NCBI GenBank assembly: GCA_963736875.1
Contig: CAVTQH010000004.1
Coordinates: 253,899 to 311,559, forward strand
Reading direction: 5' to 3'
Length of the DNA stretch: 57,661 nucleotides
Source: Candidatus Amesbacteria bacterium
GTDB lineage: Bacteria > Patescibacteriota > Microgenomatia > CAZETR01 > Amesbacteraceae
Shown: piece by piece, positions 11,439 through 22,490 of the stretch
Layout: each line of letters begins with the position of its first letter
Numbering within the stretch: the stretch's first letter is position 1
The notes under the pieces: model-generated
Seen by the model: only the letters and a program-made list of their open reading frames with translations
Database searches by the model: none
What the model was told of the DNA's origin: nothing
Position numbers and translations under genes: made by a program

Positions 11439-11510
11439 GCCGCCTTAGCTCAGTGGCAGAGCAATTGTTTTGTAAACAATAGGTCCTCGGTCCGAATCCG
11501 AGAGGCGGCT
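11439..11510 (+). tRNA. tRNA-Thr(TGT)
   Basis: Acceptor GCCGCCT/AGGCGGC, anticodon arm ATTGT-TTTGTAA-ACAAT. Confidence 0.95.
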
Positions 11511-11557
11511 CCCAAAAACAAACACTAATTTGCAAATGGTAATATAATCTAGTTAAC

Positions 11558-12187
11558 ATGGACATTGACACGATAAAGAAGCTGTACTACAGAGAAAAAT
11601 TAGGTTCACGGGAAATCGCCACAAGGCTAAATAAAACAGTTTGGCAAATTCTCCGTTTTATGAAAAAACACCATCTCAAATGCAGAACTACCGCAGAAAC
11701 CAATAAATTTAAATTTAACAGAACTCCCCTCTCTTATAATAAAAAGGTTCATATGAACGCTCAGGAAAAACAATTATTTGAAAACGGTTTAATGCTGTAT
11801 TGGGCAGAAGGATGTAACCAAACTAATAAAGTCGTGGATATGTCAAATTCTAATCCTAAAATGGTAAAAATATTTCTAAATCTATTAACAAATGTTTATC
11901 AGGTGGATCAAAAACGTATTAGAGTGCTTCTGTATTGCTATCAAAATCAGGATATTAATAATCTCAGAAAATTCTGGTCAAATTTTTTAGACATCCCCCT
12001 GTCCCAGTTCATTAAACCGTATATCAGAAAGGACTTTGATCTCAATAAAAATACAAAAATGCCATATGGCTTGGCACACATTCGCTACGCAGATACGAGA
12101 TTACTGGCTCAAATATTCAAAGATATTGATATAATTTCAGGTAAACTTTGCCGGGATGGTGGAGTGGACAATCACACGAGTCTGTAA
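11558..12187 (+). CDS. HTH + LAGLIDADG-like endonuclease-family protein
   Basis: N-terminal HTH-like segment (SREIATRLNKTVWQILRFMKK), GLMLYWAEG helix and SNSNPKMVKIF; 3' end overlaps tRNA-Tyr. Confidence 0.7.
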   Translation: MDIDTIKKLYYREKLGSREIATRLNKTVWQILRFMKKHHLKCRTTAETNKFKFNRTPLSYNKKVHMNAQEKQLFENGLMLYWAEGCNQTNKVVDMSNSNPKMVKIFLNLLTNVYQVDQKRIRVLLYCYQNQDINNLRKFWSNFLDIPLSQFIKPYIRKDFDLNKNTKMPYGLAHIRYADTRLLAQIFKDIDIISGKLCRDGGVDNHTSL

Positions 12188-12232
12188 AACTCGCGCCTTA
12201 TGGCTACCCAGGTTCGAATCCTGGTCCCGGCA
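12150..12232 (+). tRNA. tRNA-Tyr(GTA)
   Basis: Acceptor GCCGGGA/TCCCGGC, anticodon arm CGAGT-CTGTAAA-ACTCG, long variable arm, TTCGAAT T-loop. Confidence 0.95.
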
Positions 12233-12253
12233 CAAATCTGCTACAATTACCCT

Positions 12254-12607
12254 ATGGCTTTTAAATTCCAGTCCCATGTTGTCTATGAACAGCTAAGCCT
12301 TTTTACTAAAGAAATCTTCGTTCTAACCGGCCGTCTTCCCAATTATGAAAGCAATGGTTTGATCCAGCAAATCAGAAACTTAGGGAGCGGTCTCCTTCAG
12401 GATTTTGCCCAGGGATATATCCGTACCGAGCATTCGGATCCCAAAGTCGCTTTGGATAAATGCATCATTTCCGTCGCCAAAATCGCTTCCTTAATAGATC
12501 TGAGTTGTCAGCTGGGGTATATTGATCACCCCACCCACACCAAACATATTTTATCCTGTGACGAGATTACCAAGCGCTTGTACGAAACGCAAAAATCCCA
12601 CAAGTAA
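12254..12607 (+). CDS. Four-helix-bundle protein (23S rRNA IVS/bAvd-like family)
   Basis: LPNYESNGLIQQIRNLG...FAQGY...LSCQLGYI pattern; TGCTACAAT 7 nt before ATG 12254. Confidence 0.75.
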   Translation: MAFKFQSHVVYEQLSLFTKEIFVLTGRLPNYESNGLIQQIRNLGSGLLQDFAQGYIRTEHSDPKVALDKCIISVAKIASLIDLSCQLGYIDHPTHTKHILSCDEITKRLYETQKSHK

Positions 12608-12630: not shown

Positions 12631-13107
12631 TTACTTCCCGGCCGATCTCTTCTTTAAAAAAGGCGGCAATTCCGAGTGTGTCAGGCTTTTAATTTCCGGC
12701 TTATTCTCCTTCAATATTCGTAAAGTAGCTCTACTTCTGCGCTTCATTTCTTTTAGTATTTGATCCGTTTGCTCTTTTAATACGGCTACCCGTTCCGGGG
12801 CATCCTTTTCCAAAGACGCCAGGACCGCAGGCACTTTAATAGCCCAGATATCCGCAATCTCTGACCGGGTTTGAGCAATCTTTAATTTTGCAGCCTCCAG
12901 CCTCTGCCTGTCTGCTTCTAATCTCAGGTGTTCCCGCCAGGCTGCCGACTCAGGCGATTCGGGAAAGGCTTTGCTAATAAATTTCAATGCTTCATCCGAA
13001 ACCTGCTTCCATGCAGGCGTATACTGCCTGATCAGGATTAAACGCCGGTTTAGGTTCTCATCTGCTTCCGGAGTTTGCCCTCCAAATCCGTTTTTCCTTT
13101 CAGGCAT
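12631..13107 (-). CDS. Hypothetical coiled-coil protein
   Basis: ATG 13107 overlaps the upstream stop codon (ATGCCTGA), consistent with translational coupling. Confidence 0.6.
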   Translation of the reverse strand: MPERKNGFGGQTPEADENLNRRLILIRQYTPAWKQVSDEALKFISKAFPESPESAAWREHLRLEADRQRLEAAKLKIAQTRSEIADIWAIKVPAVLASLEKDAPERVAVLKEQTDQILKEMKRRSRATLRILKENKPEIKSLTHSELPPFLKKRSAGK

Positions 13108-14662
13108 CGGTTTCACCTCCGTTCTCCGGTTTATTCGGCCCCCCGCAACGGGAACAGACCGAACCGGCCTCAAGCGTCTGGCCGCAATATTCACAAACTC
13201 TCATCACTCCCCGCTTCCTGTCCTGATCAACTATCAAATCGCGCAATTTTGTAATATTTTCCTCAACACCCTCTATCAAACGCCGGCCGGCATTTAATGT
13301 TACTATGTCACTCTTTCTCGTCGGTATACCGCTTTCGTCAACCCAGTTTGAAGCTTCTATCGCTGTTCGAAACAACCTCTCTTCGATTTGCCGCTTCTTT
13401 TCCATCAACCGCTGAATCGGTGAACTATAATCCATTTGGGCATCCTTTCCCAACTCAATATCAACTTCCGTGACCAGATCCCCCTGAGGCAGTAAACCTA
13501 AAACCACTTTCGGCCTGATCGGAAATTCATAAACCGCTTCATGCTCAAAAAGTGCCTTCCTGGCAAATTCTTCCGCCTGTATAAAATCCCGGTTTAGCAG
13601 TGCCAAATCAGCAATCCGTCTGATGGCATGATCCGCATCTCTGACCACCATTCTGGCCAAATCCTCATCCTTCTCATAATCCACCAGCACCATCACTTCA
13701 CTTAAATTCAGTTTATTCTGGAGGGAATTTACTGTCGGCTGCAGAAATTGAGTTGCCTTTTGCCGCAGCAGGTCAAAGGTGGAAATTGAACCTTTTTGGA
13801 TCAGAATATCTTGTACCGCCTGTTCCCCGCTGCTGATCTTGTCCAGGGGGAATTTTTTAAAATCCGGAGACCCACCCCTGGATTTCATCCGGCGTACGTC
13901 ACTGACTGACAGATAAGTCGGGCTTAGCCCCCACAATGTATTTTCCAGTTCCGTCTGCTCTCCCGGATCCATTATTAAATGCGCCGTAATCAGATCCGGT
14001 ATAAACACTACTTTGGGTGTTTGCCCCTGCATCGCCTCTAATGCCTGGTGAATTCTGTCATAAAACGATTGCAATTCCGCTCTGCTTCTGGCCAGAGCCA
14101 TATCATTTGACCTGGAGCTTACATGTCGGTGTAATATGCCTGCCAGATCCTTGGCTTTTCTAATTCCCAGCAGTAGCTGCAGTTCAGCGGCAATTACTTT
14201 TTCTTCCCGGGTCGGAGGATATTCATTGTCCAACTGGCCGGTATTTACTCTTTTGGTTAATTCTTTCGCCTCACTTATAATTTTTGATTCCAAATCCCTG
14301 ATTAAATCATAGTTTTCCGGAATAATACCCATGAATTTTTGCTCCAGACCCGTTACTACCCTCTCCACATTTTCAGGAAATGACAATTCCGCTTTTTCTG
14401 CTCCGGCTTTTCCGGCTACGGCATTTCCCAGACCGGCGATTTTCTCCTGCTGCCTGTCTATCCATGACATCCCTCCCCGGGGCGTTTTCCTGGTTAAAAT
14501 ATATGCCAGACCGATTCTGGCTAAAGCTTCTGCTACTCCCGGCTCATGGTTAAACGGTATAACTTCACCATCGGGTGATATATTTGTCTCCGGCGGCAAA
14601 CCTAATCTCTCACGCCTTTCAGCTTGGAGCTGTGCCCATTTGGCCTCGTACGGATTTGGCAT
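13100..14662 (-). CDS. Hypothetical helical protein with C-terminal zinc ribbon
   Basis: 520-aa ORF ending CEYCGQTLEAGSVCSRCGGP. Confidence 0.75.
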   Translation of the reverse strand: MPNPYEAKWAQLQAERRERLGLPPETNISPDGEVIPFNHEPGVAEALARIGLAYILTRKTPRGGMSWIDRQQEKIAGLGNAVAGKAGAEKAELSFPENVERVVTGLEQKFMGIIPENYDLIRDLESKIISEAKELTKRVNTGQLDNEYPPTREEKVIAAELQLLLGIRKAKDLAGILHRHVSSRSNDMALARSRAELQSFYDRIHQALEAMQGQTPKVVFIPDLITAHLIMDPGEQTELENTLWGLSPTYLSVSDVRRMKSRGGSPDFKKFPLDKISSGEQAVQDILIQKGSISTFDLLRQKATQFLQPTVNSLQNKLNLSEVMVLVDYEKDEDLARMVVRDADHAIRRIADLALLNRDFIQAEEFARKALFEHEAVYEFPIRPKVVLGLLPQGDLVTEVDIELGKDAQMDYSSPIQRLMEKKRQIEERLFRTAIEASNWVDESGIPTRKSDIVTLNAGRRLIEGVEENITKLRDLIVDQDRKRGVMRVCEYCGQTLEAGSVCSRCGGPNKPENGGETDA

Positions 14663-14707: not shown

Positions 14708-15157
14708 TTATGACCGGGCAGTGTCGCGGGATTTGCTCTTGTTTGTGTCAGTGTTTTGGCCAATATTACCGTTTTTGGGTATTGGTTTTGTTCGCACACC
14801 CTGCTTCCGGCTTTCCGCTTGTGCCATTGAAAATAAGGCCAGTGTTATTCTCTGAAACAAAGTCCCCCAGTACCCGGTCTGCTTTTCCCTTCCGGCCTTT
14901 ACCGGTACTTCTTCATCGGGTATTTGCTTCTCTGTTTTCCTCCCCTGAGATTTTTCTCCGATCATGGCCCGCCACCTGTCCGCCCCGGGCGGCTGCCACC
15001 CCTCGGTTTTTTTCATGCCTTCCGCAAATTCATCAACTGCGGACTGTCCCGCCTGATATAAACGGGTTTTCATCCGGTCATCCGCTCCGGCCAGAAAAGC
15101 CCCGATTTTCCCGACTTTTTTATCATTTTCTTTAAAAGACATATGGTATTCTAACAA
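14708..15157 (-). CDS. Hypothetical protein
   Basis: 149-aa ORF co-oriented with its neighbours. Confidence 0.55.
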   Translation of the reverse strand: MLEYHMSFKENDKKVGKIGAFLAGADDRMKTRLYQAGQSAVDEFAEGMKKTEGWQPPGADRWRAMIGEKSQGRKTEKQIPDEEVPVKAGREKQTGYWGTLFQRITLALFSMAQAESRKQGVRTKPIPKNGNIGQNTDTNKSKSRDTARS

Positions 15158-15461: not shown

Positions 15462-15965
15462 CTACTTGATTTTTTGGTATTTCGGCAATAATGGGTGTGG
15501 TTCCGAGAGGACCGGAGTGTAAGCGAGGCAGTGGGATCCCATATGACTGATGTGATTACCGGTGGGGATTTGCGGACAAACTGACTGGGTTGGATTTGGA
15601 GTGTTGGCTTGCGTTGGACTGGGTCCTCCTTGTGTTGGTACAACCATCGGAGTTCCGATTGGCGGCAAAGCTCCCCATTCCTCACGGATTTCGATTATGG
15701 TGTTATTGGCTGCAATAAAAGCCTTTAGAGGGAACCATCCCGCATACCAAATCAATCCTAAGGCTAATCCGCTTAGAGCTGCAAAAAACAGAACTGTTAG
15801 CAACAAATGGATTACTCCCAACATACGTCCTGCAGCATACTCTTCAGCTTTATGCCAAATCTTCAATCCGATCCATATTCCAAAACCAAACAGTGCCAAT
15901 GCCCACCAGTATTCGGCTATGTAACCCGCTATGAAATTTAATATACTGAGAAATTTTTCAAACAT
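15462..15965 (-). CDS. Membrane protein with Pro/Thr-rich tail
   Basis: Two TM helices; AGGAGG Shine-Dalgarno upstream of ATG 15965. Confidence 0.7.
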   Translation of the reverse strand: MFEKFLSILNFIAGYIAEYWWALALFGFGIWIGLKIWHKAEEYAAGRMLGVIHLLLTVLFFAALSGLALGLIWYAGWFPLKAFIAANNTIIEIREEWGALPPIGTPMVVPTQGGPSPTQANTPNPTQSVCPQIPTGNHISHMGSHCLAYTPVLSEPHPLLPKYQKIK

Positions 15966-16067: not shown

Positions 16068-18356
16068 TTACCTCCATTGAAGGTACTTCGCCATTACCAG
16101 ATCTATGTATTCCTGTCCCCCATACCAGTTGTAATGATGAGCGGCCTCAGCATAGCTTCCGTATTGGCGGTAATGTGATGCCAAAATTTGTGATCCCCAG
16201 AGAACATTCATTTCCGGATCTTTGAGTTCTTCGATTGTAGGTCGACCTTTGAAGCAATGTCCTCCGCAGCTTAAGGCTCCGCAGGCAATCGTTTTCGGGG
16301 TTAAATCCGAAGGCATTATCTGCATCAGTCCTACTGCATCACACTCAGACATCGCGTCCGGATCTCCTTTTGACTCTACATCCATAACTGCTGCAATAAA
16401 CGCAGAGTCAATCGAAAACTCTTCGGAATTTTGGTCGATAAGGTCACACCAGCGTCGGATTCTCTCGGGAACACTTGATTTTAACGAACATTCCCCCGGA
16501 ACCGGTGGAGTCGGTGGATCAGGTGTTTCACCCGAAACTTTCCCTGCCAGGTAAGCCGCCACCAGTATAAAAAGCACCAGTGCTGTAACGACTATACCCA
16601 GATTCCCCAGACATCCTCTTAACTTTTTTCTCACTACATAGTGACCTTTATGATTCCTGGTAACCCGGACATATACTCTCACCCTTAAAAACAGGTTGAT
16701 TACAATGGCTGTTGCCAAAGCTGCAATCTTCCAGTTTGCTAAAAGAGTGATTCCGGTCAGCCAAGCCCAAAGAGCCTGTGAACTTATTTCTCTTATTTGC
16801 GGCCAGAAAAGCCATATTAAAGCCAGCTCAACTAACCACCACCTCAGACTCTCGAAAAAGGCTGACTTCCCTATTCTCCACCAATATGGACCATGATCTT
16901 TAATCCACACCAGTGCCTCTGATGACTTATGCGGAAATAACCACACAATCAACAGGAAGACAATCCCCGTCATCAGTAGTCCGCCCAGGCAGTAAAGCCA
17001 GGAAGGAATAGCCGGAGGAGTGGGATTTGGTGGAACTTCAGATTCAGATTCCATCCACATGGTCAGGGTATCCCCGTCAATCTTCCAGTGCAAAATAACC
17101 GGATAGTCAAAGGGGTTAGTTACCCTGACATCCATCTCGGCACATTTGTAGTTCACTGAGGGGATACATACCGTAGCTACATATTGCTGGGGTACACCGG
17201 GTACAGGTGCATGTGTCGGATTATCACGCTCGACCTCCAATTTTCCCATAGATGCCACATAAGACACCATGGAGGCTGAATTGCATGAACCATCACCGAT
17301 TCCACCTGTACTTGGTACTACCATTCCCTGCTCCCTTTCGTATTTTTTACTTCCGAAAAAGGCGTTTACACTGTGTGTACCTGGGGTTATGGTCCATCCG
17401 CCTTCAAAATTGTTTAAATCCATCTGGTTCATTTTCGAAAGATCTTCTCCCGAAGTCGGCCAGGCAAAAAATGCACGGACATTGTGTTGATAATCCGTAT
17501 CGCCGGGTTTTTGGTCACTGATGGAAAATTGGAATTTTGAAGGTTCAGGTGTTGGTACTGGTGTTGGAATTGGTGTAGGAATGACTTCTTCCCTGCCACG
17601 AATCAGGTTAAACAAAACCCCGAATCCGTCTTCCAGATATTTTGTTATCCGGGTAATTTCCGGGTGGTCGTCAAACCAATTAATGATGACGTCTAAAATT
17701 TTCACCCAGGCTGATAATTTATCACGCAGTTCTTTAAGTTTTTTAAGCCATTCCGGATCATTTGGATTTGGTGGATTTGGCGGTTCAGGTGGTTCAGGTG
17801 GTTCAGGCGGACCCGGAGGGGTATCATCTATTCCATCCCAAAATTGGTCATGGTTTTTAATGTTTTCCCCTGAAATCAGGTCCCTAAACCAGCAATGACA
17901 ATGCGGTTCCGAACTCCTGCCGATTGAATCAACCCAACCTATCACTTCACCCGCATCCACATGCTTAATTCCGTTAACTTTGCATCTTAGATGTAGAGCT
18001 CCGAACTCGTATTTTCCGCTGTCGCTTTTTAAAGCAAAAACAGTGTTCCCGACACCGTCATGGTAACAGGTGGCAGTGGTCGTACCGGAAAACGGGGCTA
18101 AAATCTCAGTACCTCTCGAAGCTATGTAATCATAACCTTTGATAGGCCCTGCAACGCAGCTCCCGTCTTCACATCCGTCATGATAATAGGGTGACCCCCA
18201 TCTCTCCAGGATGTACCAATCAGTACCTTCCGGGAATATAAAAAATGGTCCCGGGTGAGACGACGCACGTGTAGTTGAGACATCAAAGATGCTCAACAGC
18301 GCAACCAGGAGTAATAATCCCAGTGCGCAAAGTAAGACTTTCTTTCTTTCCCGCAT
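16068..18356 (-). CDS. Multidomain cell-wall enzyme: M23-like + VanW-like + TM helices + SLT lytic transglycosylase
   Basis: GYDY..TEILAPFSG..VDAGEVIG..SSEPHCH (M23); GDGSCNSASMV..VATV..TNPFDYPVIL (VanW-like); AVMDVESKGDPDA..GLMQIMP (SLT); AAGGAG SD before ATG 18356. Confidence 0.82.
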   Translation of the reverse strand: MRERKKVLLCALGLLLLVALLSIFDVSTTRASSHPGPFFIFPEGTDWYILERWGSPYYHDGCEDGSCVAGPIKGYDYIASRGTEILAPFSGTTTATCYHDGVGNTVFALKSDSGKYEFGALHLRCKVNGIKHVDAGEVIGWVDSIGRSSEPHCHCWFRDLISGENIKNHDQFWDGIDDTPPGPPEPPEPPEPPNPPNPNDPEWLKKLKELRDKLSAWVKILDVIINWFDDHPEITRITKYLEDGFGVLFNLIRGREEVIPTPIPTPVPTPEPSKFQFSISDQKPGDTDYQHNVRAFFAWPTSGEDLSKMNQMDLNNFEGGWTITPGTHSVNAFFGSKKYEREQGMVVPSTGGIGDGSCNSASMVSYVASMGKLEVERDNPTHAPVPGVPQQYVATVCIPSVNYKCAEMDVRVTNPFDYPVILHWKIDGDTLTMWMESESEVPPNPTPPAIPSWLYCLGGLLMTGIVFLLIVWLFPHKSSEALVWIKDHGPYWWRIGKSAFFESLRWWLVELALIWLFWPQIREISSQALWAWLTGITLLANWKIAALATAIVINLFLRVRVYVRVTRNHKGHYVVRKKLRGCLGNLGIVVTALVLFILVAAYLAGKVSGETPDPPTPPVPGECSLKSSVPERIRRWCDLIDQNSEEFSIDSAFIAAVMDVESKGDPDAMSECDAVGLMQIMPSDLTPKTIACGALSCGGHCFKGRPTIEELKDPEMNVLWGSQILASHYRQYGSYAEAAHHYNWYGGQEYIDLVMAKYLQWR

Positions 18357-18643
18357 GGGACACACTCCTTTCGTATCTAAAATGTATTTTTTTCCCTTAA
18401 TAAGGGCCGAGCGGTACCGACCTGTTCACAAAAATATGTAACTCAGATCACCACTGCTCGGCCCCCAAATGGGAAAGTATCTCAACCTATAGACTGTAAC
18501 TAATCTCGATTCACTTGTTAAAGTGCTATTTCCAACATTTCTAACTCATCGGCGCATATGCCGATCAGAAATATCTGAAATAAGGCAGATTAAATTACAA
18601 TCCAAAAATGGCTTCTGCGAATAGAAGCCTTTTGGATGACCGC

Positions 18644-18672: not shown

Positions 18673-18698
18673 TCTAATTTTCCTTCTTCTGAAGTGAG

Positions 18699-18770
18699 AG
18701 CCTGGAGTGGGAATCGGACCCACGACCTCATTCTTACCAAGAATGCGTTCTGCCACTGAACTACCCAGGC
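18699..18770 (-). tRNA. tRNA-Thr(GGT)
   Basis: Acceptor GCCTGGG/TCCAGGC, anticodon arm CATTC-TTGGTAA-GAATG. Confidence 0.93.
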
Positions 18771-18781
18771 AGCCTGTCCTA

Positions 18782-20026
18782 TTATAACCGATGGCTATCT
18801 GGCGTCGTACATCGTTCTGATAAATTCCGGCAAGGACTGGTCACCCCTTCGTCCACCAGCCTCAATCCCTCCTGTAAAAGCCCGACAAAACCCGCCTTTT
18901 CCAGTTCCAGTTTAAACTCCGTCTCCCCCGCTCCGGAAGTAATCAGCCTTCGGACTTCATCCCCGATTTCAATTAGCTCATATATTCCCACCCGCCCCCG
19001 GTATTTGGACTGGTAGCACAGATCACATCCCCGTCCCTGCATCAGTCTTCCGGGATTTAATCCTTTCTCCCTGATATAAACTGCATGCTCGGGAGGTGTC
19101 GGCAGATATTCCTCCCGGCAATGTTCACATACCCGCCGCATCAGCCGCTGGGACAATACCGCCCGTAAAGCATAATTGAGCATATACCGGTCCACTCCCA
19201 GATCAATCATCCGGTAAAGCGCTCCCACGCTGTTTCTGGCATGAACCGTGGAAATTACCAGATGCCCGGTCAGTGAAGCCTGAATGGCAATTTTGGCTGT
19301 TTCCGCATCCCTGATTTCGCCGACAAACACAATGTCGGGATTAAGCCTTAAAATCATTTTCAGTCCTGACACAAAATCCATCCCGATATCCTCCCCTACC
19401 TGGATCTGGTTTATCCCCGGCATCAGGTATTCAACCGGGTCTTCCAGAGTCATGATATTGACTTCACCGTTATTTAGGTACTTCAGACAGGAATGCACCG
19501 TTGTCGTCTTCCCCGACCCGGTAGGACCGCATACCAGAAACAATCCGTACCTTCCCGTAATATTGCGTTTGATTTTTTCCGCCAGATCGGGGGACATTCC
19601 CAGCTGGTCAAATTCGGTAAATTTCGGCGCGTCAAGGACTCTTAGAGCAATCATCTGTCCGAAATTAGTGGTTACAATCGCCGCCCGCAGGACGTACGGA
19701 TGTTCCTCCACGTCAAAGCGGATTTTGCTTTCCTGGGGTTTCCGGTTTTCCGTCACGTCCATATTTCCCAGCACCTTTATCCGCGAAATCACCTGGTCAT
19801 AAGAGCCGTGCGGCATTACCCCGAACGTCTGCAGCACCCCGTCCACCCGAAGCCTGACTATGATTTCCTTTTCCTGCGGTTCAAACAGAATATCCGAAGC
19901 GGACAGCTTAATCGCCTGGGCAATTACCTGGTCTACAATTTCCACCGGCGAAGACATTCCCGAAAGTGAAAAACTTTGTGAGTCCACCCTTTTATTGTCA
20001 AGCGTCTTGACCTGGGTGTCAATCAC
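18782..20026 (-). CDS. PilB/GspE-family secretion/pilus ATPase (C-terminus probably frameshifted)
   Basis: ASDILFEP, RLRVDGVL, GPTGSGKTT, TLEDPVEY, LRLNPDIVFVGEIRD, AVLSQRLMRRVC..C, C..C..YRGR. An alternative frame ends VTSLAEFIRTMYDAR*. Confidence 0.9.
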   Translation of the reverse strand: MIDTQVKTLDNKRVDSQSFSLSGMSSPVEIVDQVIAQAIKLSASDILFEPQEKEIIVRLRVDGVLQTFGVMPHGSYDQVISRIKVLGNMDVTENRKPQESKIRFDVEEHPYVLRAAIVTTNFGQMIALRVLDAPKFTEFDQLGMSPDLAEKIKRNITGRYGLFLVCGPTGSGKTTTVHSCLKYLNNGEVNIMTLEDPVEYLMPGINQIQVGEDIGMDFVSGLKMILRLNPDIVFVGEIRDAETAKIAIQASLTGHLVISTVHARNSVGALYRMIDLGVDRYMLNYALRAVLSQRLMRRVCEHCREEYLPTPPEHAVYIREKGLNPGRLMQGRGCDLCYQSKYRGRVGIYELIEIGDEVRRLITSGAGETEFKLELEKAGFVGLLQEGLRLVDEGVTSPCRNLSERCTTPDSHRL

Positions 20027-21412: not shown

Positions 21413-22490
21413 TCAATACATTCCGGTTTTATCTTTTGCCTTCTTAATAAATTTTCCGAACTTCCGGTCTTTAGCTCTTCTTTCCACCTCATTCATTTTG
21501 TAGAATTCAGTTTCTTTTTGTAATTTTTTGTAATTCAGATATTTATCTTTATCCATTGTCCCTGTCTCCACCGCTTCCAAAATCGCACAGTCAGGTTCGT
21601 TTGTATGAGTACAGTCTGAATATCTGCAATTCCGGGATAGTAAACCTACTTCATCAAACACATTTTCTATACCCGTATCCAAATCTCCCATACCCACCTC
21701 TCTTGTACCCGGATTATCAATAACTATCCCCCCGTTTTTCAAAAAATACATCTCTCTCACAGAAGTTGTATGTTTTCCTCTGCCCGTAGTTTCGCTTAAT
21801 CCCCGCTGTTTTAATGTCATTTTTCCCAAGTAATTTATTTATAAGCGTTGATTTTCCCACCCCGGAAGAACCCAAAAAACAATATGTCTTACCTTTGGAA
21901 ATATACTTTTCCAGTTCATCCAAACCCGTTTCCGTGACAGTACTTGTCAGAAGAATATAAACATCCCCGAACCTTTCTTTAATCCCGGTTATCTTGATGT
22001 CTAATTCAGCCTCGGAAATTAAATCAGTTTTATTAATAATTATCACCGGCTTAATTCCTCCGTCTTTGGCTAATACCAAATATCTCTCAAAACGATTCAA
22101 ACTGTAATCTCTATCCGGTGACCCCACAATAAATGCCGTGTCTATGTTAGTCGCTATTAGTTGATTTTCATCCTTATTACTGTACTTCTTTGAAAGTACC
22201 GTCTTTCTGGGTAACACTTGACGAATAACTGCTTTTCCTCCGGATAATTCGTTTATCACTACAAAGTCCCCCACCGCCGGATAATCTTCTCTTTTTACCG
22301 CCAAAAACTGCTGTTTACCGGTAATTTTGGCTAAATATTCTCCATCCACCCCTCTTACTTTGTACGCTTCCCGGTATTCAGCCACCACCCTGGCTATCTC
22401 ATGTCCGGTTAAATCTGACTTTCTTAGTCCTATCTTATAAAACCCGTCAAAACCTAAATCCTCCAGAGTGCTTGTTTGAGTTTCATTCAT
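21413..22490 (-). CDS. rsgA: Ribosome small-subunit GTPase RsgA, one-base frameshift near 21800
   Basis: PAVGDFV, QLIATNID, NKTD, GSSGVGKST. Removing one base gives ...SETTGRGKHTT..IDNPGTRE..CRYSDCTHTNEPDCAI. Confidence 0.9.

What the first reader, a model, noticed from the sequence alone, without database searches (positions are those of the whole stretch)
16068..18356. Single polypeptide combining M23-like, VanW-like and lytic transglycosylase domains across a multi-TM core
The order is N-terminal anchor, M23-like domain, PEPP linker, VanW-like domain, about four TM helices, Pro linker and SLT domain (catalytic ES and GLMQ intact). An even TM count would put both the peptide-cutting and glycan-cutting modules outside the cell. 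The M23 HxH (PHCH) is present, but the usual HxxxD His appears replaced (IKGYD), so that domain may only bind. It is a candidate tool for opening host or own peptidoglycan in an epibiont, or a VirB1-like transfer factor.
Basis: partly seen in the sequence, partly recalled or inferred. Interest (0 to 1): 0.65.

Follow-up and report, generated by a model that had tools for sequence, protein, structure and literature searches.

The report
Three-enzyme wall-remodelling membrane protein cassette
An ultra-small (CPR) bacterium encodes one membrane protein carrying a cross-link cutter, a likely cross-link maker and a glycan cutter for the cell wall; it leads a rare, self-contained five-gene cassette that sits at different genome sites in related genomes and whose purpose is unknown.

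Summary
Window 16068-18356 (-) is a real 762-aa gene under purifying selection (dN/dS 0.13). Its order is signal/anchor, M23, PEPP stalk, VanW-like core, four TM helices, Pro linker, SLT. Hydropathy and the positive-inside rule place all three enzyme domains outside the cell.

- VanW is now known as an L,D-transpeptidase catalytic domain. The family's invariant C358 and H382 align with the VanW catalytic Cys and His (profile-profile probability 95%). The protein therefore probably pairs two wall cutters with a cross-linker.
- The gene heads a five-gene cassette found in the same order in all seven independent loci. Partners are a 2-TM protein (with an SH3 domain in relatives), a ~500-aa protein with no fold match, and two small cytoplasmic proteins. 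An 18-nt promoter/operator motif, unique in the genome, and a long leader hairpin precede it.
- The cassette is rare (2 of 301 class genomes) and occupies different sites. Sister genomes show empty sites both here and where a relative carries its own copy.

No link to type IV secretion, phage or known defence systems was found.

Most likely it is a localised cut-and-re-crosslink wall machine. Whether it acts on its own wall or a host's wall is unresolved.

The parts
18509..18526 (-). Conserved promoter/operator motif GCACTTTAACAAGTGAAT (arms CACTT/AAGTG). It overlaps a -35-like TTAACA, with an A/T-rich -10-like hexamer 17 nt downstream.
   Evidence: The 13-mer TTAAMAAGTGRAT occurs exactly once, upstream of g1 and on its strand, in every cassette locus that includes the upstream DNA (eight independent contexts). 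It is absent from the 32 other loci fetched. The 18-mer is unique in the 998-kb genome even with 3 mismatches allowed. Alignment; promoter scan.
18391..18476 (-). Long, near-perfect hairpin in the 5' leader, between the promoter-like site and the ribosome-binding site.
   Evidence: MFE -61 kcal/mol, z -5.8. Comparable hairpins occur in the leaders of L045, L005 and L007 (z -7.2, -7.1, -4.5) and L002, with different sequences. The leader is about 97% identical to L044 although coding dS is 0.51. No Rfam match.
16068..18356 (-). g1: the 762-aa multidomain wall enzyme, the subject of the finding.
18258..18356 (-). g1 residues 1-33: signal peptide or signal anchor (helix 7-25; possible TRA|SS cleavage site).
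   Evidence: Hydropathy. An N-terminal hydrophobic helix is conserved in relatives. Cleavage is inferred only.
17841..18239 (-). g1 residues 40-172: M23/LytM domain. Key residues are I72 (in place of the canonical His), D76, H122, H152 and H154, plus an upstream YYHDGCEDGSC motif at 57-67.
   Evidence: Pfam 39.1 bits. Foldseek probability 1.00 to EnpA, lysostaphin and LytM. pLDDT 70-82. Motif classes.
17541..17825 (-). g1 residues 178-272: stalk made of a PEPP linker (180-201), a helical spacer (201-255) and a PT linker (259-273).
   Evidence: Sequence. AlphaFold helices 202-253 at low confidence.
17043..17540 (-). g1 residues 273-438: VanW-like core, the most conserved part of the family. Invariant residues are N292, N331, G354, C358, H382, G387, V388, D409, W424 and W434.
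   Evidence: Alignments A2 and A3. VanW matched in 13 of 20 members, best E 4.9e-9. hhalign against canonical CPR VanW domains: probability 95.2%, E 2.6e-8, with Cys and His aligned. pLDDT 70-91.
16536..17003 (-). g1 residues 452-607: four-helix membrane core with conserved A499, W506, W532, W542 and N554 and two K/R-rich cytoplasmic loops.
16071..16535 (-). g1 residues 608-762: Pro linker and family-1 lytic transglycosylase (SLT) domain, with E661-S662, GLMQ 676-679 and YN 742-743.
   Evidence: Pfam 62.1 bits. Alignment to EmtA, with the E-S and GLMQ motifs matched.
15462..15965 (-). g2: 167-aa protein with two TM helices. Relatives carry a C-terminal bacterial SH3 (SH3_3) domain; the window copy has a shorter tail.
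   Evidence: Synteny. SH3_3 scored above the cut-off in L005, L007 and L045.
14708..15157 (-). g3: small, charged, probably cytoplasmic protein with an amphipathic C-terminal helix.
   Evidence: Conserved position in all cassettes. No family match.
13100..14662 (-). g4: 520-aa soluble protein with a C-terminal zinc ribbon (present in some relatives) and an invariant PIRP motif.
   Evidence: Alignment A4. AlphaFold mean pLDDT 79. No PDB or BFVD fold match at E<=0.001. No PDB sequence match. Found in 2 of 301 class genomes.
12631..13107 (-). g5: roughly 158-aa helical protein ending in a PPFL(K/R) motif. Its likely ATG overlaps the end of g4.
   Evidence: The PPFL-type motif recurs in the g5 of L002 and L005 (three copies in L005), with a degenerate PPPW in L001. 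No family match.
18698..18770 (-). tRNA-Thr(GGT), marking the upstream edge of the insertion. It is inverted relative to sister genomes. A terminator hairpin follows at 18610-18629.

Best explanation
g1 is a functional, membrane-embedded peptidoglycan-remodelling enzyme of a CPR (Microgenomatia) bacterium. A four-helix membrane core displays three wall-active domains outside the cell.
- An M23 endopeptidase sits on a ~100-residue proline/helix stalk and cuts peptide cross-links.
- A VanW-type Cys/His domain lies next to the membrane. It is an L,D-transpeptidase or L,D-carboxypeptidase that re-forms or trims 3-3 cross-links.
- A family-1 lytic transglycosylase cuts glycan strands.

g1 is the enzymatic head of a self-contained five-gene cassette. 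The other genes are g2 (two TM helices, plus a wall-binding SH3 domain in relatives) and three cytoplasmic proteins, g3-g5, with no detectable relatives outside the cassette family; g4's confident model has no fold match. The cassette has its own conserved promoter/operator and a leader hairpin.

Most likely mechanism (inferred): the complex excises a small patch of the sacculus, most probably the producer's own, and re-stitches its rim, making or maintaining a local reinforced opening. The cytoplasmic partners act through the conserved TM core and its loops.

The cassette is an accessory unit that occupies different genome sites in related genomes, not housekeeping.

Shown: the domains, the conserved catalytic residues, purifying selection, the synteny, the rarity and the empty sites.
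Inferred: the topology, the enzymatic activities, the cut-and-re-crosslink logic and the target wall.
For: Domains:
- M23 and SLT score above the Pfam cut-offs.
- Foldseek matches M23 structures at probability 1.00.
- The catalytic E-S and GLMQ motifs of SLT align with EmtA.
- The VanW-like core matches canonical CPR VanW domains at hhalign probability 95.2%. C358 aligns with the GGGVC Cys and H382 with the AHAYRV His. Both are invariant in 20 members, as is D409.
- VanW domains are Cys-dependent L,D-transpeptidases and carboxypeptidases (PMC11348318; PMC12729407).

Selection: dN/dS is 0.13 overall and 0.03-0.20 per domain.

Topology: the hydropathy and K/R pattern is conserved across about 15 relatives. 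The weak TM2 of the window protein is clearly hydrophobic in P0006, P0009, P0012 and P0013.

Cassette:
- The g1-g5 order is identical in seven independent loci.
- The 13-mer motif occurs once upstream of every cassette and nowhere else in the genome.

Accessory and site-variable:
- g4 is present in 2 of 301 class genomes.
- The full-length core is present only in this genome among 27 family genomes.
- Sister genomes G011 and G013 have IVP and tRNA-Thr(GGT) adjacent, with no cassette.
- A related genome (L002; flanking genes 46-87% identical) carries a 40%-identical cassette between its NUDIX and RNR genes. In this genome those two genes are 30 bp apart.
Against: - No enzymatic, expression or topology experiment exists.
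- VanW scores below the Pfam cut-off in the window protein (23.7 against 27 bits).
- One of the two invariant Asp residues of canonical VanW (the DATV motif) is not kept, and some VanW proteins lack transpeptidase activity (PMC12729407).
- The M23 domain lacks the canonical first zinc-binding His.
- Rarity, fast divergence and module swapping fit a conflict or host-interaction role better than work on the cell's own wall. M23 is replaced by Amidase_2 in P0144, and the SLT domain by unknown domains in P0005 and P0007.
Confidence: 0.6

Rival explanations
1. Host-directed tool. The cassette acts at the epibiont-host contact. The stalked M23 (after signal-peptide cleavage) and the SLT open the host's peptidoglycan. 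The VanW-type transpeptidase may covalently stitch epibiont components to the host wall. The cassette would then be a host-range or attachment determinant.
For: - The distribution is extremely patchy.
- Cassette proteins diverge far more than flanking genes (g1 40% and g4 25%, against 46-87% for neighbours).
- Wall-enzyme modules are swapped between members, as in lysins that track target wall chemistry.
- The M23 domain sits on a ~100-residue stalk.
- CPR bacteria are thought to be largely epibiotic (PMC11665869 abstract).
Against: - Both enzyme-bearing ends are tethered to the producer's membrane. The VanW-like and SLT domains have linkers of only 13-15 residues, too short to cross the cell's own wall (inference).
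- There is no secretion or injection apparatus in the cassette.
- No host is known for this organism.
Confidence: 0.2
2. VirB1/PrgK-like assembly factor. The protein locally opens the wall so that a type IV secretion system, type IV pilus or competence apparatus can be assembled.
For: - Multidomain LytM+SLT hydrolases such as PrgK serve monoderm T4SSs (PMC12102498).
- A T2SSE-family ATPase lies upstream in the window.
- A VirD4-like (T4CP-like) gene lies 2.8 kb from the cassette in L002.
Against: - The ATPase is separated from g1 by a tRNA gene and a terminator.
- The ATPase is conserved at this position in about 14 family genomes, and the four sister loci examined lack the cassette.
- The genome's only AAA_10 (VirB4-type) match is on contig C2.
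- This genome's 87%-identical copy of the L002 VirD4-like gene sits next to an empty site.
- L001, L005, L007, L043 and L045 have no such gene nearby.
- VirB1 homologues are generally not tightly linked to virB4 in Patescibacteria, so absence of linkage is not fully decisive.
Confidence: 0.07
3. Conflict or selfish module. The cassette is a new defence island (abortive infection through regulated self-lysis) or the remnant lysis or entry module of a mobile element or phage.
For: - It lies in a tRNA-cluster hotspot that holds different inserts in relatives.
- It is rare, occupies different sites and diverges quickly.
- It has a dedicated, genome-unique promoter/operator.
- Generic PHROG lysin hits match the M23 and SLT domains.
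Against: - No PADLOC hit for any cassette protein.
- g2-g5 have no PHROG hit.
- No relatives of g1 or g4 in 2.9 million IMG/VR contigs.
- g4 has no fold match among viral proteins.
- No integrase, terminase, att repeats or terminal inverted repeats.
- A cross-linking domain as the invariant core is an odd choice for a lysis device.
Confidence: 0.08

Closest known systems
PrgK of Enterococcus plasmid pCF10, and related monoderm T4SS hydrolases (TraG of pIP501, CwlT of ICEBs1)
   Same: A membrane-anchored, multidomain wall hydrolase that combines a LytM/M23-type domain with an SLT domain in one polypeptide. It opens the producer's own wall locally (as cited in PMC12102498; the PrgK domain order is from my own knowledge).
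   Different: - PrgK has one N-terminal anchor and a CHAP domain. It has no VanW domain and no polytopic core.
- PrgK is encoded inside a T4SS operon. Here no T4SS linkage was found, and the partners g2-g5 are unrelated to T4SS parts.
VanW-type L,D-transpeptidases Ldt4 and Ldt5 of Clostridioides difficile (PMC11348318)
   Same: The same catalytic domain superfamily with the Cys and His conserved. Both are membrane-tethered and extracytoplasmic.
   Different: - Canonical VanW proteins carry PG4 and G5 domains and no hydrolase modules. This genome, like 31 of 31 relatives, has such a canonical ~570-aa protein as well.
- The core here is a divergent subfamily at or just below the Pfam threshold.
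- It lacks the DATV Asp and has a family-specific N-terminal extension (residues 273-310).
SpoIID/SpoIIM/SpoIIP (DMP) engulfment machine of Bacillus subtilis (comparison from my own knowledge)
   Same: A lytic transglycosylase and a peptide-cutting enzyme organised by a polytopic membrane protein, so that wall degradation is localised and processive.
   Different: - DMP consists of three separate proteins, and its peptide cutter is an amidase/endopeptidase of another family.
- It has no cross-linking domain and no homology to the TM core or to g2-g5.
FtsEX-EnvC/PcsB/RipC type regulated hydrolase systems, and LytM factors (EnvC, NlpD, DipM)
   Same: A LytM-fold domain with an incomplete zinc site. 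Foldseek hits include EnvC and DipM. The idea of cytoplasmic proteins controlling an outside wall enzyme through a membrane protein is shared.
   Different: - The cassette has no FtsE/FtsX-like ABC ATPase.
- EnvC and NlpD have lost most ligands, whereas only one is missing here, with a co-varying upstream His.
EmtA/MltC-type family-1 lytic transglycosylases
   Same: These are the best sequence matches for residues 629-727. The catalytic E-S and GLMQ motifs are shared.
   Different: - Those enzymes are outer-membrane lipoproteins of diderms.
- NCBIfam scores here (about 41 bits) are far below the equivalog cut-offs (233-375 bits), so the relation is at domain level only.

Membership tests
Peptidase M23 / LytM | Profile match above the curated threshold | tested here: met
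   PF01551 scored 39.1 bits against a cut-off of 28.7. 16 of 20 family members match.
Peptidase M23 / LytM | LytM fold | tested here: met
   Foldseek probability 1.00 and target-normalised TM-score 0.6-0.66 to EnpA, lysostaphin and LytM. The domain's pLDDT is 70-82.
Peptidase M23 / LytM | Complete zinc site: the His and Asp of HxxxD plus the second His of HxH, together with the catalytic His residues | tested here: not met
   The Asp (D76), HxH (H152, H154) and H122 are present, but the first His is Ile72. A conserved upstream His (H59; YHxGC in nine of the ten His-less members, LHD in P0006) occurs in all ten members that lack the canonical His and in none of the five that keep it. Whether it replaces the ligand could not be measured, because no coordinates were available.
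Peptidase M23 / LytM | Endopeptidase activity | not testable with these tools
   This needs zymography or muropeptide assays.
VanW-type L,D-transpeptidase | Profile match above the curated threshold | tested here: inconclusive
   The window protein scored 23.7 bits against a cut-off of 27, and 27.5 bits in the six-frame search. P0005 (28.2) and P0010 (27.9) pass. The family profile against canonical VanW domains gave hhalign probability 95.2%, E 2.6e-8.
VanW-type L,D-transpeptidase | Catalytic Cys and His conserved | tested here: met
   C358 and H382 are invariant in 20 members and align with the GGGVC Cys and the AHAYRV His of 15 canonical VanW domains.
VanW-type L,D-transpeptidase | Third triad residue (Asp) | tested here: inconclusive
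   D409 is invariant and aligns with the invariant Asp of the canonical xDFKF motif. The other invariant canonical Asp (DATV) is not conserved here. The papers' text does not say which Asp belongs to the triad.
VanW-type L,D-transpeptidase | 3-3 cross-linking activity | not testable with these tools
   This needs a tetrapeptide-probe or muropeptide assay as in PMC11348318.
SLT (family 1 lytic transglycosylase) | Profile match above threshold, with the catalytic Glu (E-S), GLMQ and YN motifs | tested here: met
   PF01464 scored 62.1 bits against a cut-off of 21.3. E661-S662 and GLMQ align with EmtA.
SLT (family 1 lytic transglycosylase) | Extracytoplasmic location | tested here: inconclusive
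   There is an even number of TM helices, and the loop before the last helix is K/R-rich (7 of 23 residues in the window; 3-14 K/R in relatives), which points to an outside location. No dedicated predictor or experiment was available.
VirB1-like / T4SS-associated wall hydrolase | Encoded with, and needed by, a type IV secretion gene set (VirB4, VirB6, T4CP) | tested here: not met
   The only AAA_10 match is on contig C2. A T4CP-like gene is near the cassette only in L002, and this genome's 87%-identical copy lies beside an empty site.
Phage virion or tape-measure lysin | Phage structural or packaging genes nearby, or relatives on viral contigs | tested here: not met
   No relatives of g1 or g4 in IMG/VR. 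g2-g5 have no PHROG hit. The flanks are housekeeping genes.
Known anti-phage defence systems | Match to a PADLOC model | tested here: not met
   No hit for g1-g5.

The most novel reading that the evidence does not exclude
The five genes, with their private palindromic promoter/operator and leader hairpin, form an undescribed, horizontally exchanged envelope machine of CPR bacteria. A tri-enzymatic head cuts peptide and glycan bonds and re-forms 3-3 links. An SH3 anchor fixes the complex to the wall. Three cytoplasmic proteins with no detectable relatives outside the cassette family control it across the membrane. The machine would build a reinforced portal in the wall, or covalently suture the epibiont to a host's peptidoglycan. 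That would make the VanW-type domain the first transpeptidase used for cell-cell attachment.
Probability: 0.2. Interest if true: 0.85.

Novelty: new variant of a known kind. Interest (0 to 1): 0.6.

Why it matters
VanW domains were assigned a function, L,D-transpeptidation, only in 2024. Here a divergent VanW core with the catalytic Cys and His intact is the invariant centre of a protein family. That family bolts interchangeable wall cutters (M23 or Amidase_2; SLT or unknown domains) onto a conserved four-helix membrane core.

If the activities are confirmed, this would be a single polypeptide that both breaks and re-makes peptidoglycan bonds. It would be a compact model for how a wall can be opened without losing integrity.

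CPR bacteria have tiny genomes and an epibiotic lifestyle that is poorly understood at the molecular level. A rare envelope cassette that sits at different genome sites, with novel partners and its own operator, is therefore a concrete, testable candidate for a lineage-specific surface function.

A side result is that every one of 31 sampled Microgenomatia genomes carries a canonical VanW protein. This hints that 3-3 cross-linking may be a core feature of their walls.

Tried and rejected
- T4SS link: rejected.
- Functional coupling to the upstream T2SSE ATPase: rejected. A tRNA gene and a terminator lie between them, and the ATPase is conserved in sister genomes while the four sister loci examined lack the cassette.
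- Phage origin: no relatives on viral contigs, no PHROG hits for g2-g5, and no viral fold match for g4.
- Known defence system: no PADLOC hit.
- Mobile-element boundaries: no att-like direct repeats and no terminal inverted repeats in the window or L002. The other cassette loci are not next to tRNA genes.
- Riboswitch or known RNA in the leader: no Rfam match.
- Fold assignment for g4: the model is confident (pLDDT 79) but nothing matched at E<=0.001 in PDB or BFVD. No PDB sequence hit.
- VanW-like core against the PDB by profile: only spurious antibody hits.
- Alternative C-terminal domains of P0005, P0144 and P0015: no Pfam or PDB match.
- Full-length AlphaFold model of g1: useful only for the M23 domain and the core. 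The TM and SLT parts were below pLDDT 50, and Foldseek returned only M23 hits.
- Zinc-site and triad geometry: not measurable, because model coordinates are not exposed to the Python box.
Full report
**The gene.** The window holds an open frame at 16068..18365 on the minus strand. Pfam finds Peptidase_M23 (72-158, 39.1 bits, cut-off 28.7) and SLT (639-743, 62.1 bits, cut-off 21.3). It also finds VanW (350-433, 23.7 bits, below the cut-off of 27, E 3.6e-5). NCBIfam and PDB sequence searches give only domain-level matches, to EmtA/MltC for the C-terminus and to lysostaphin, LytM and NMB0315 for the N-terminus. The EmtA alignment matches E661-S662 and GLMQ.

**Topology.** Hydropathy gives an N-terminal helix (7-25) and four helices between 452 and 607.
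- The loop after TM1 and the loop before the last helix are K/R-rich (the latter 7 of 23 residues). The loop between TM2 and TM3 is short and nearly uncharged.
- This alternation recurs in about 15 relatives. The weakly hydrophobic TM2 of the window protein is clearly hydrophobic in several of them.
- Some relatives insert an extra hairpin before the last helix, which keeps the count even.
- The AlphaFold secondary structure shows the same helices.

With an exported N-terminal part, this puts the SLT domain outside. This is an inference: no dedicated predictor was available.

**The family.** The word-indexed search of 5.8 billion clusters found seven relatives. The exhaustive HMMER search of 1.84 billion representatives found 19 with E<1e-30, about 15 of them full length. 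Named relatives are Microgenomates and Gottesmanbacteria MAGs. The window's genome is 998 kb in 5 contigs and 91% complete, so it is a CPR bacterium.

The most conserved part is neither hydrolase. It is the central region 273-438 together with the membrane helices. The outer modules vary:
- 16 of 20 members have M23 and 11 of 20 have SLT.
- P0144 has Amidase_2 in place of M23.
- P0015 has a second M23 after the core.
- P0005 and P0007 have an unassignable C-terminal domain.

**The central domain.** VanW was shown in 2024 to be the catalytic domain of a second family of L,D-transpeptidases. It has an essential Cys in a Cys-His-Asp triad and also has L,D-carboxypeptidase activity (PMC11348318; review PMC12729407).
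- In 20 members the invariant residues of the core include C358, H382 and D409.
- I built a profile of 15 canonical VanW domains from this genome and its relatives. Profile-profile comparison gave probability 95.2%, E 2.6e-8.
- In that alignment C358 falls on the GGGVC cysteine, H382 on the AHAYRV histidine, and D409 on the invariant Asp of xDFKF. The other invariant canonical Asp (DATV) is not kept.

The core is therefore a divergent VanW-superfamily domain with the nucleophile and general base intact. Whether it cross-links or only trims is open.

The canonical ~570-aa VanW protein is present in 31 of 31 sampled relatives. The domain here is therefore an extra, specialised copy.

**The M23 site.** By register (G74, D76), Ile72 occupies the position of the first zinc-binding His. 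D76, H122, H152 and H154 are kept. Across the family there are two classes.
- Five members have a canonical H-x-G-x-D.
- Ten members have I or T at that position, and all ten carry a conserved His about 13 residues upstream (YHxGC in nine, LHD in P0006). The five canonical members lack it.

In the model, residues 58-60 form a strand next to strand 73-78, which would put H59 on the same face as D76. The domain has the lowest dN/dS in the protein (0.03). I read this as a probable relocated ligand rather than a dead domain, but it is untested.

**The cassette.** The same four genes follow g1 in the same order in every locus with enough downstream DNA. These loci are the window, L001, L002, L005, L007, L043 and L045. 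The four genes are:
- a protein of about 170-210 aa with two TM helices, carrying an SH3_3 domain in relatives;
- a small charged protein;
- a protein of about 480-560 aa;
- a helical protein of about 156-196 aa ending in a PPFL-type motif.

None matches Pfam, PHROGs or PADLOC. The ~500-aa protein models confidently (mean pLDDT 79). It has no structural neighbour at E<=0.001 in the PDB or among viral proteins.

**Regulatory region.** The 13-mer TTAAMAAGTGRAT lies upstream of g1 in every cassette locus that includes the upstream DNA. It occurs exactly once per locus, on the gene's strand, and is absent from the 32 other loci held.
- The 18-mer GCACTTTAACAAGTGAAT is unique in the whole genome, even with three mismatches allowed.
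- It contains the inverted arms CACTT/AAGTG and overlaps a -35-like TTAACA, with an A/T-rich hexamer 17 nt downstream in each locus.
- A long hairpin lies between it and the ribosome-binding site (z -5.8 in the window; -7.2, -7.1 and -4.5 in L045, L005 and L007). Its sequence differs between loci.
- No Rfam family matches.
- The leader is about 97% identical to that of the 88%-identical homologue, although synonymous divergence in the gene is 0.51.

I reached the motif independently from the alignments here.

**Distribution and mobility.** The g4 profile hits 2 of 301 genomes of the class. The full-length core occurs only in this genome among 27 of its family.

Sister genomes G011 and G013 have the order M50, tRNA-Thr(TGT), tRNA-Tyr, IVP, tRNA-Thr(GGT), short T2SSE ATPase, with no cassette. 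In the window, the 5.7-kb cassette lies between IVP and a tRNA-Thr(GGT) that is inverted relative to those genomes. Two other relatives carry different inserts in the same tRNA cluster.

Conversely, locus L002 comes from a fairly close relative: its flanking genes are 46-87% identical, including an 87%-identical VirD4-like gene. It carries a cassette whose g1 is only 40% and whose g4 only 25% identical, placed between its NUDIX and RNR genes. In this genome those two genes are 30 bp apart.

So related genomes hold divergent versions at different sites, each with an empty counterpart site. I found no integrase inside the cassette, no att-like repeats and no terminal inverted repeats. How it moves is unknown.

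**Hypotheses tested and rejected.**
- The upstream T2SSE ATPase is not a partner. A tRNA gene and a terminator separate it from g1, and it is conserved at this position in about 14 family genomes, with no cassette in the four sister loci examined.
- A VirB1-like role lacks support. The only AAA_10 match is on another contig. The VirD4-like neighbour seen in L002 sits beside an empty site in this genome.
- Phage origin lacks support, as does a known defence system.

**Interpretation.** I am confident (about 0.9) that this is an extracytoplasmic, membrane-anchored peptidoglycan-remodelling enzyme with three wall-active domains. I am also confident that it is the head of a conserved accessory cassette.

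The working model is a cut-and-re-crosslink device that makes a local, reinforced opening in the producer's own wall, controlled from the cytoplasm through the conserved TM core. This model rests on three things:
- the short linkers (13-15 residues) that hold the VanW-like and SLT domains close to the membrane;
- the SH3 anchor on g2;
- the analogy with PrgK and the SpoIIDMP machine.

Rarity, fast divergence and module swapping argue instead for a role in conflict or host interaction. I give the host-directed rival 0.2.

Noticed in passing
own genome contig C2:82498-82881 (locus L008); relatives L020-L033: A canonical ~570-aa VanW protein (143-159 bits) is present in 31 of 31 sampled Microgenomatia genomes, including this one. 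VanW-type L,D-transpeptidation may therefore be a core wall function in this CPR class.
   Followed up: partly
window 11439-12607 and 18698-18770; L036-L039: The cluster tRNA-Thr(TGT), tRNA-Tyr, IVP, tRNA-Thr(GGT) is an insertion hotspot in this family. G017 has a different ~10-kb insert between IVP and tRNA-Thr(GGT). G014 has a 5.5-kb insert between tRNA-Thr(TGT) and tRNA-Tyr. The window has a LAGLIDADG-like ORF in that second slot.
   Followed up: partly
window 21413-22490 (-): The RsgA GTPase gene is split into two overlapping ORFs, 21717-22490 and 21413-21829. Both match PF03193, covering profile positions 1-142 and 129-173. This is a frameshift or an assembly error.
   Followed up: no
L011-L019 (class-level relatives), e.g. 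L012:1159-1815: Nine relatives have small (~200-240 aa) proteins carrying only the C-terminal, Cys/His-bearing half of the VanW-like core (43-55 bits). The one in L012 lies directly after a penicillin-binding-protein gene.
   Followed up: partly
window 18782-20026 (-): This is a short (414-aa) T2SSE-family ATPase that lacks the long N-terminal region of its ~560-600-aa PilB-like paralogues. About 14 family genomes have it at 63-78% identity, and it lies beside the tRNA cluster in the four sister loci examined. The genome has three T2SSE paralogues.
   Followed up: partly
own genome contig C3:51793-56469: A VirD4-like gene lies next to a XerC-like integrase gene and a DivIC gene. It is 87% identical to the L002 protein annotated DUF8128/TraG-D_C. 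A 31%-identical paralogue lies at C4:115946-118117.
   Followed up: partly
window 1-57661: GC skew is strongly and almost uniformly negative on the plus strand, about -0.1 to -0.27 over nearly the whole window. A paper title in the literature search (PMC7143001) reports an unusual strand composition disparity in a complete Microgenomates genome.
   Followed up: no
window 16496-16531, 17012-17047, 17753-17788: The three proline-rich linkers of g1 share DNA-level similarity (61-72% over 36 nt). This suggests the linkers arose by duplication or are kept alike.
   Followed up: no
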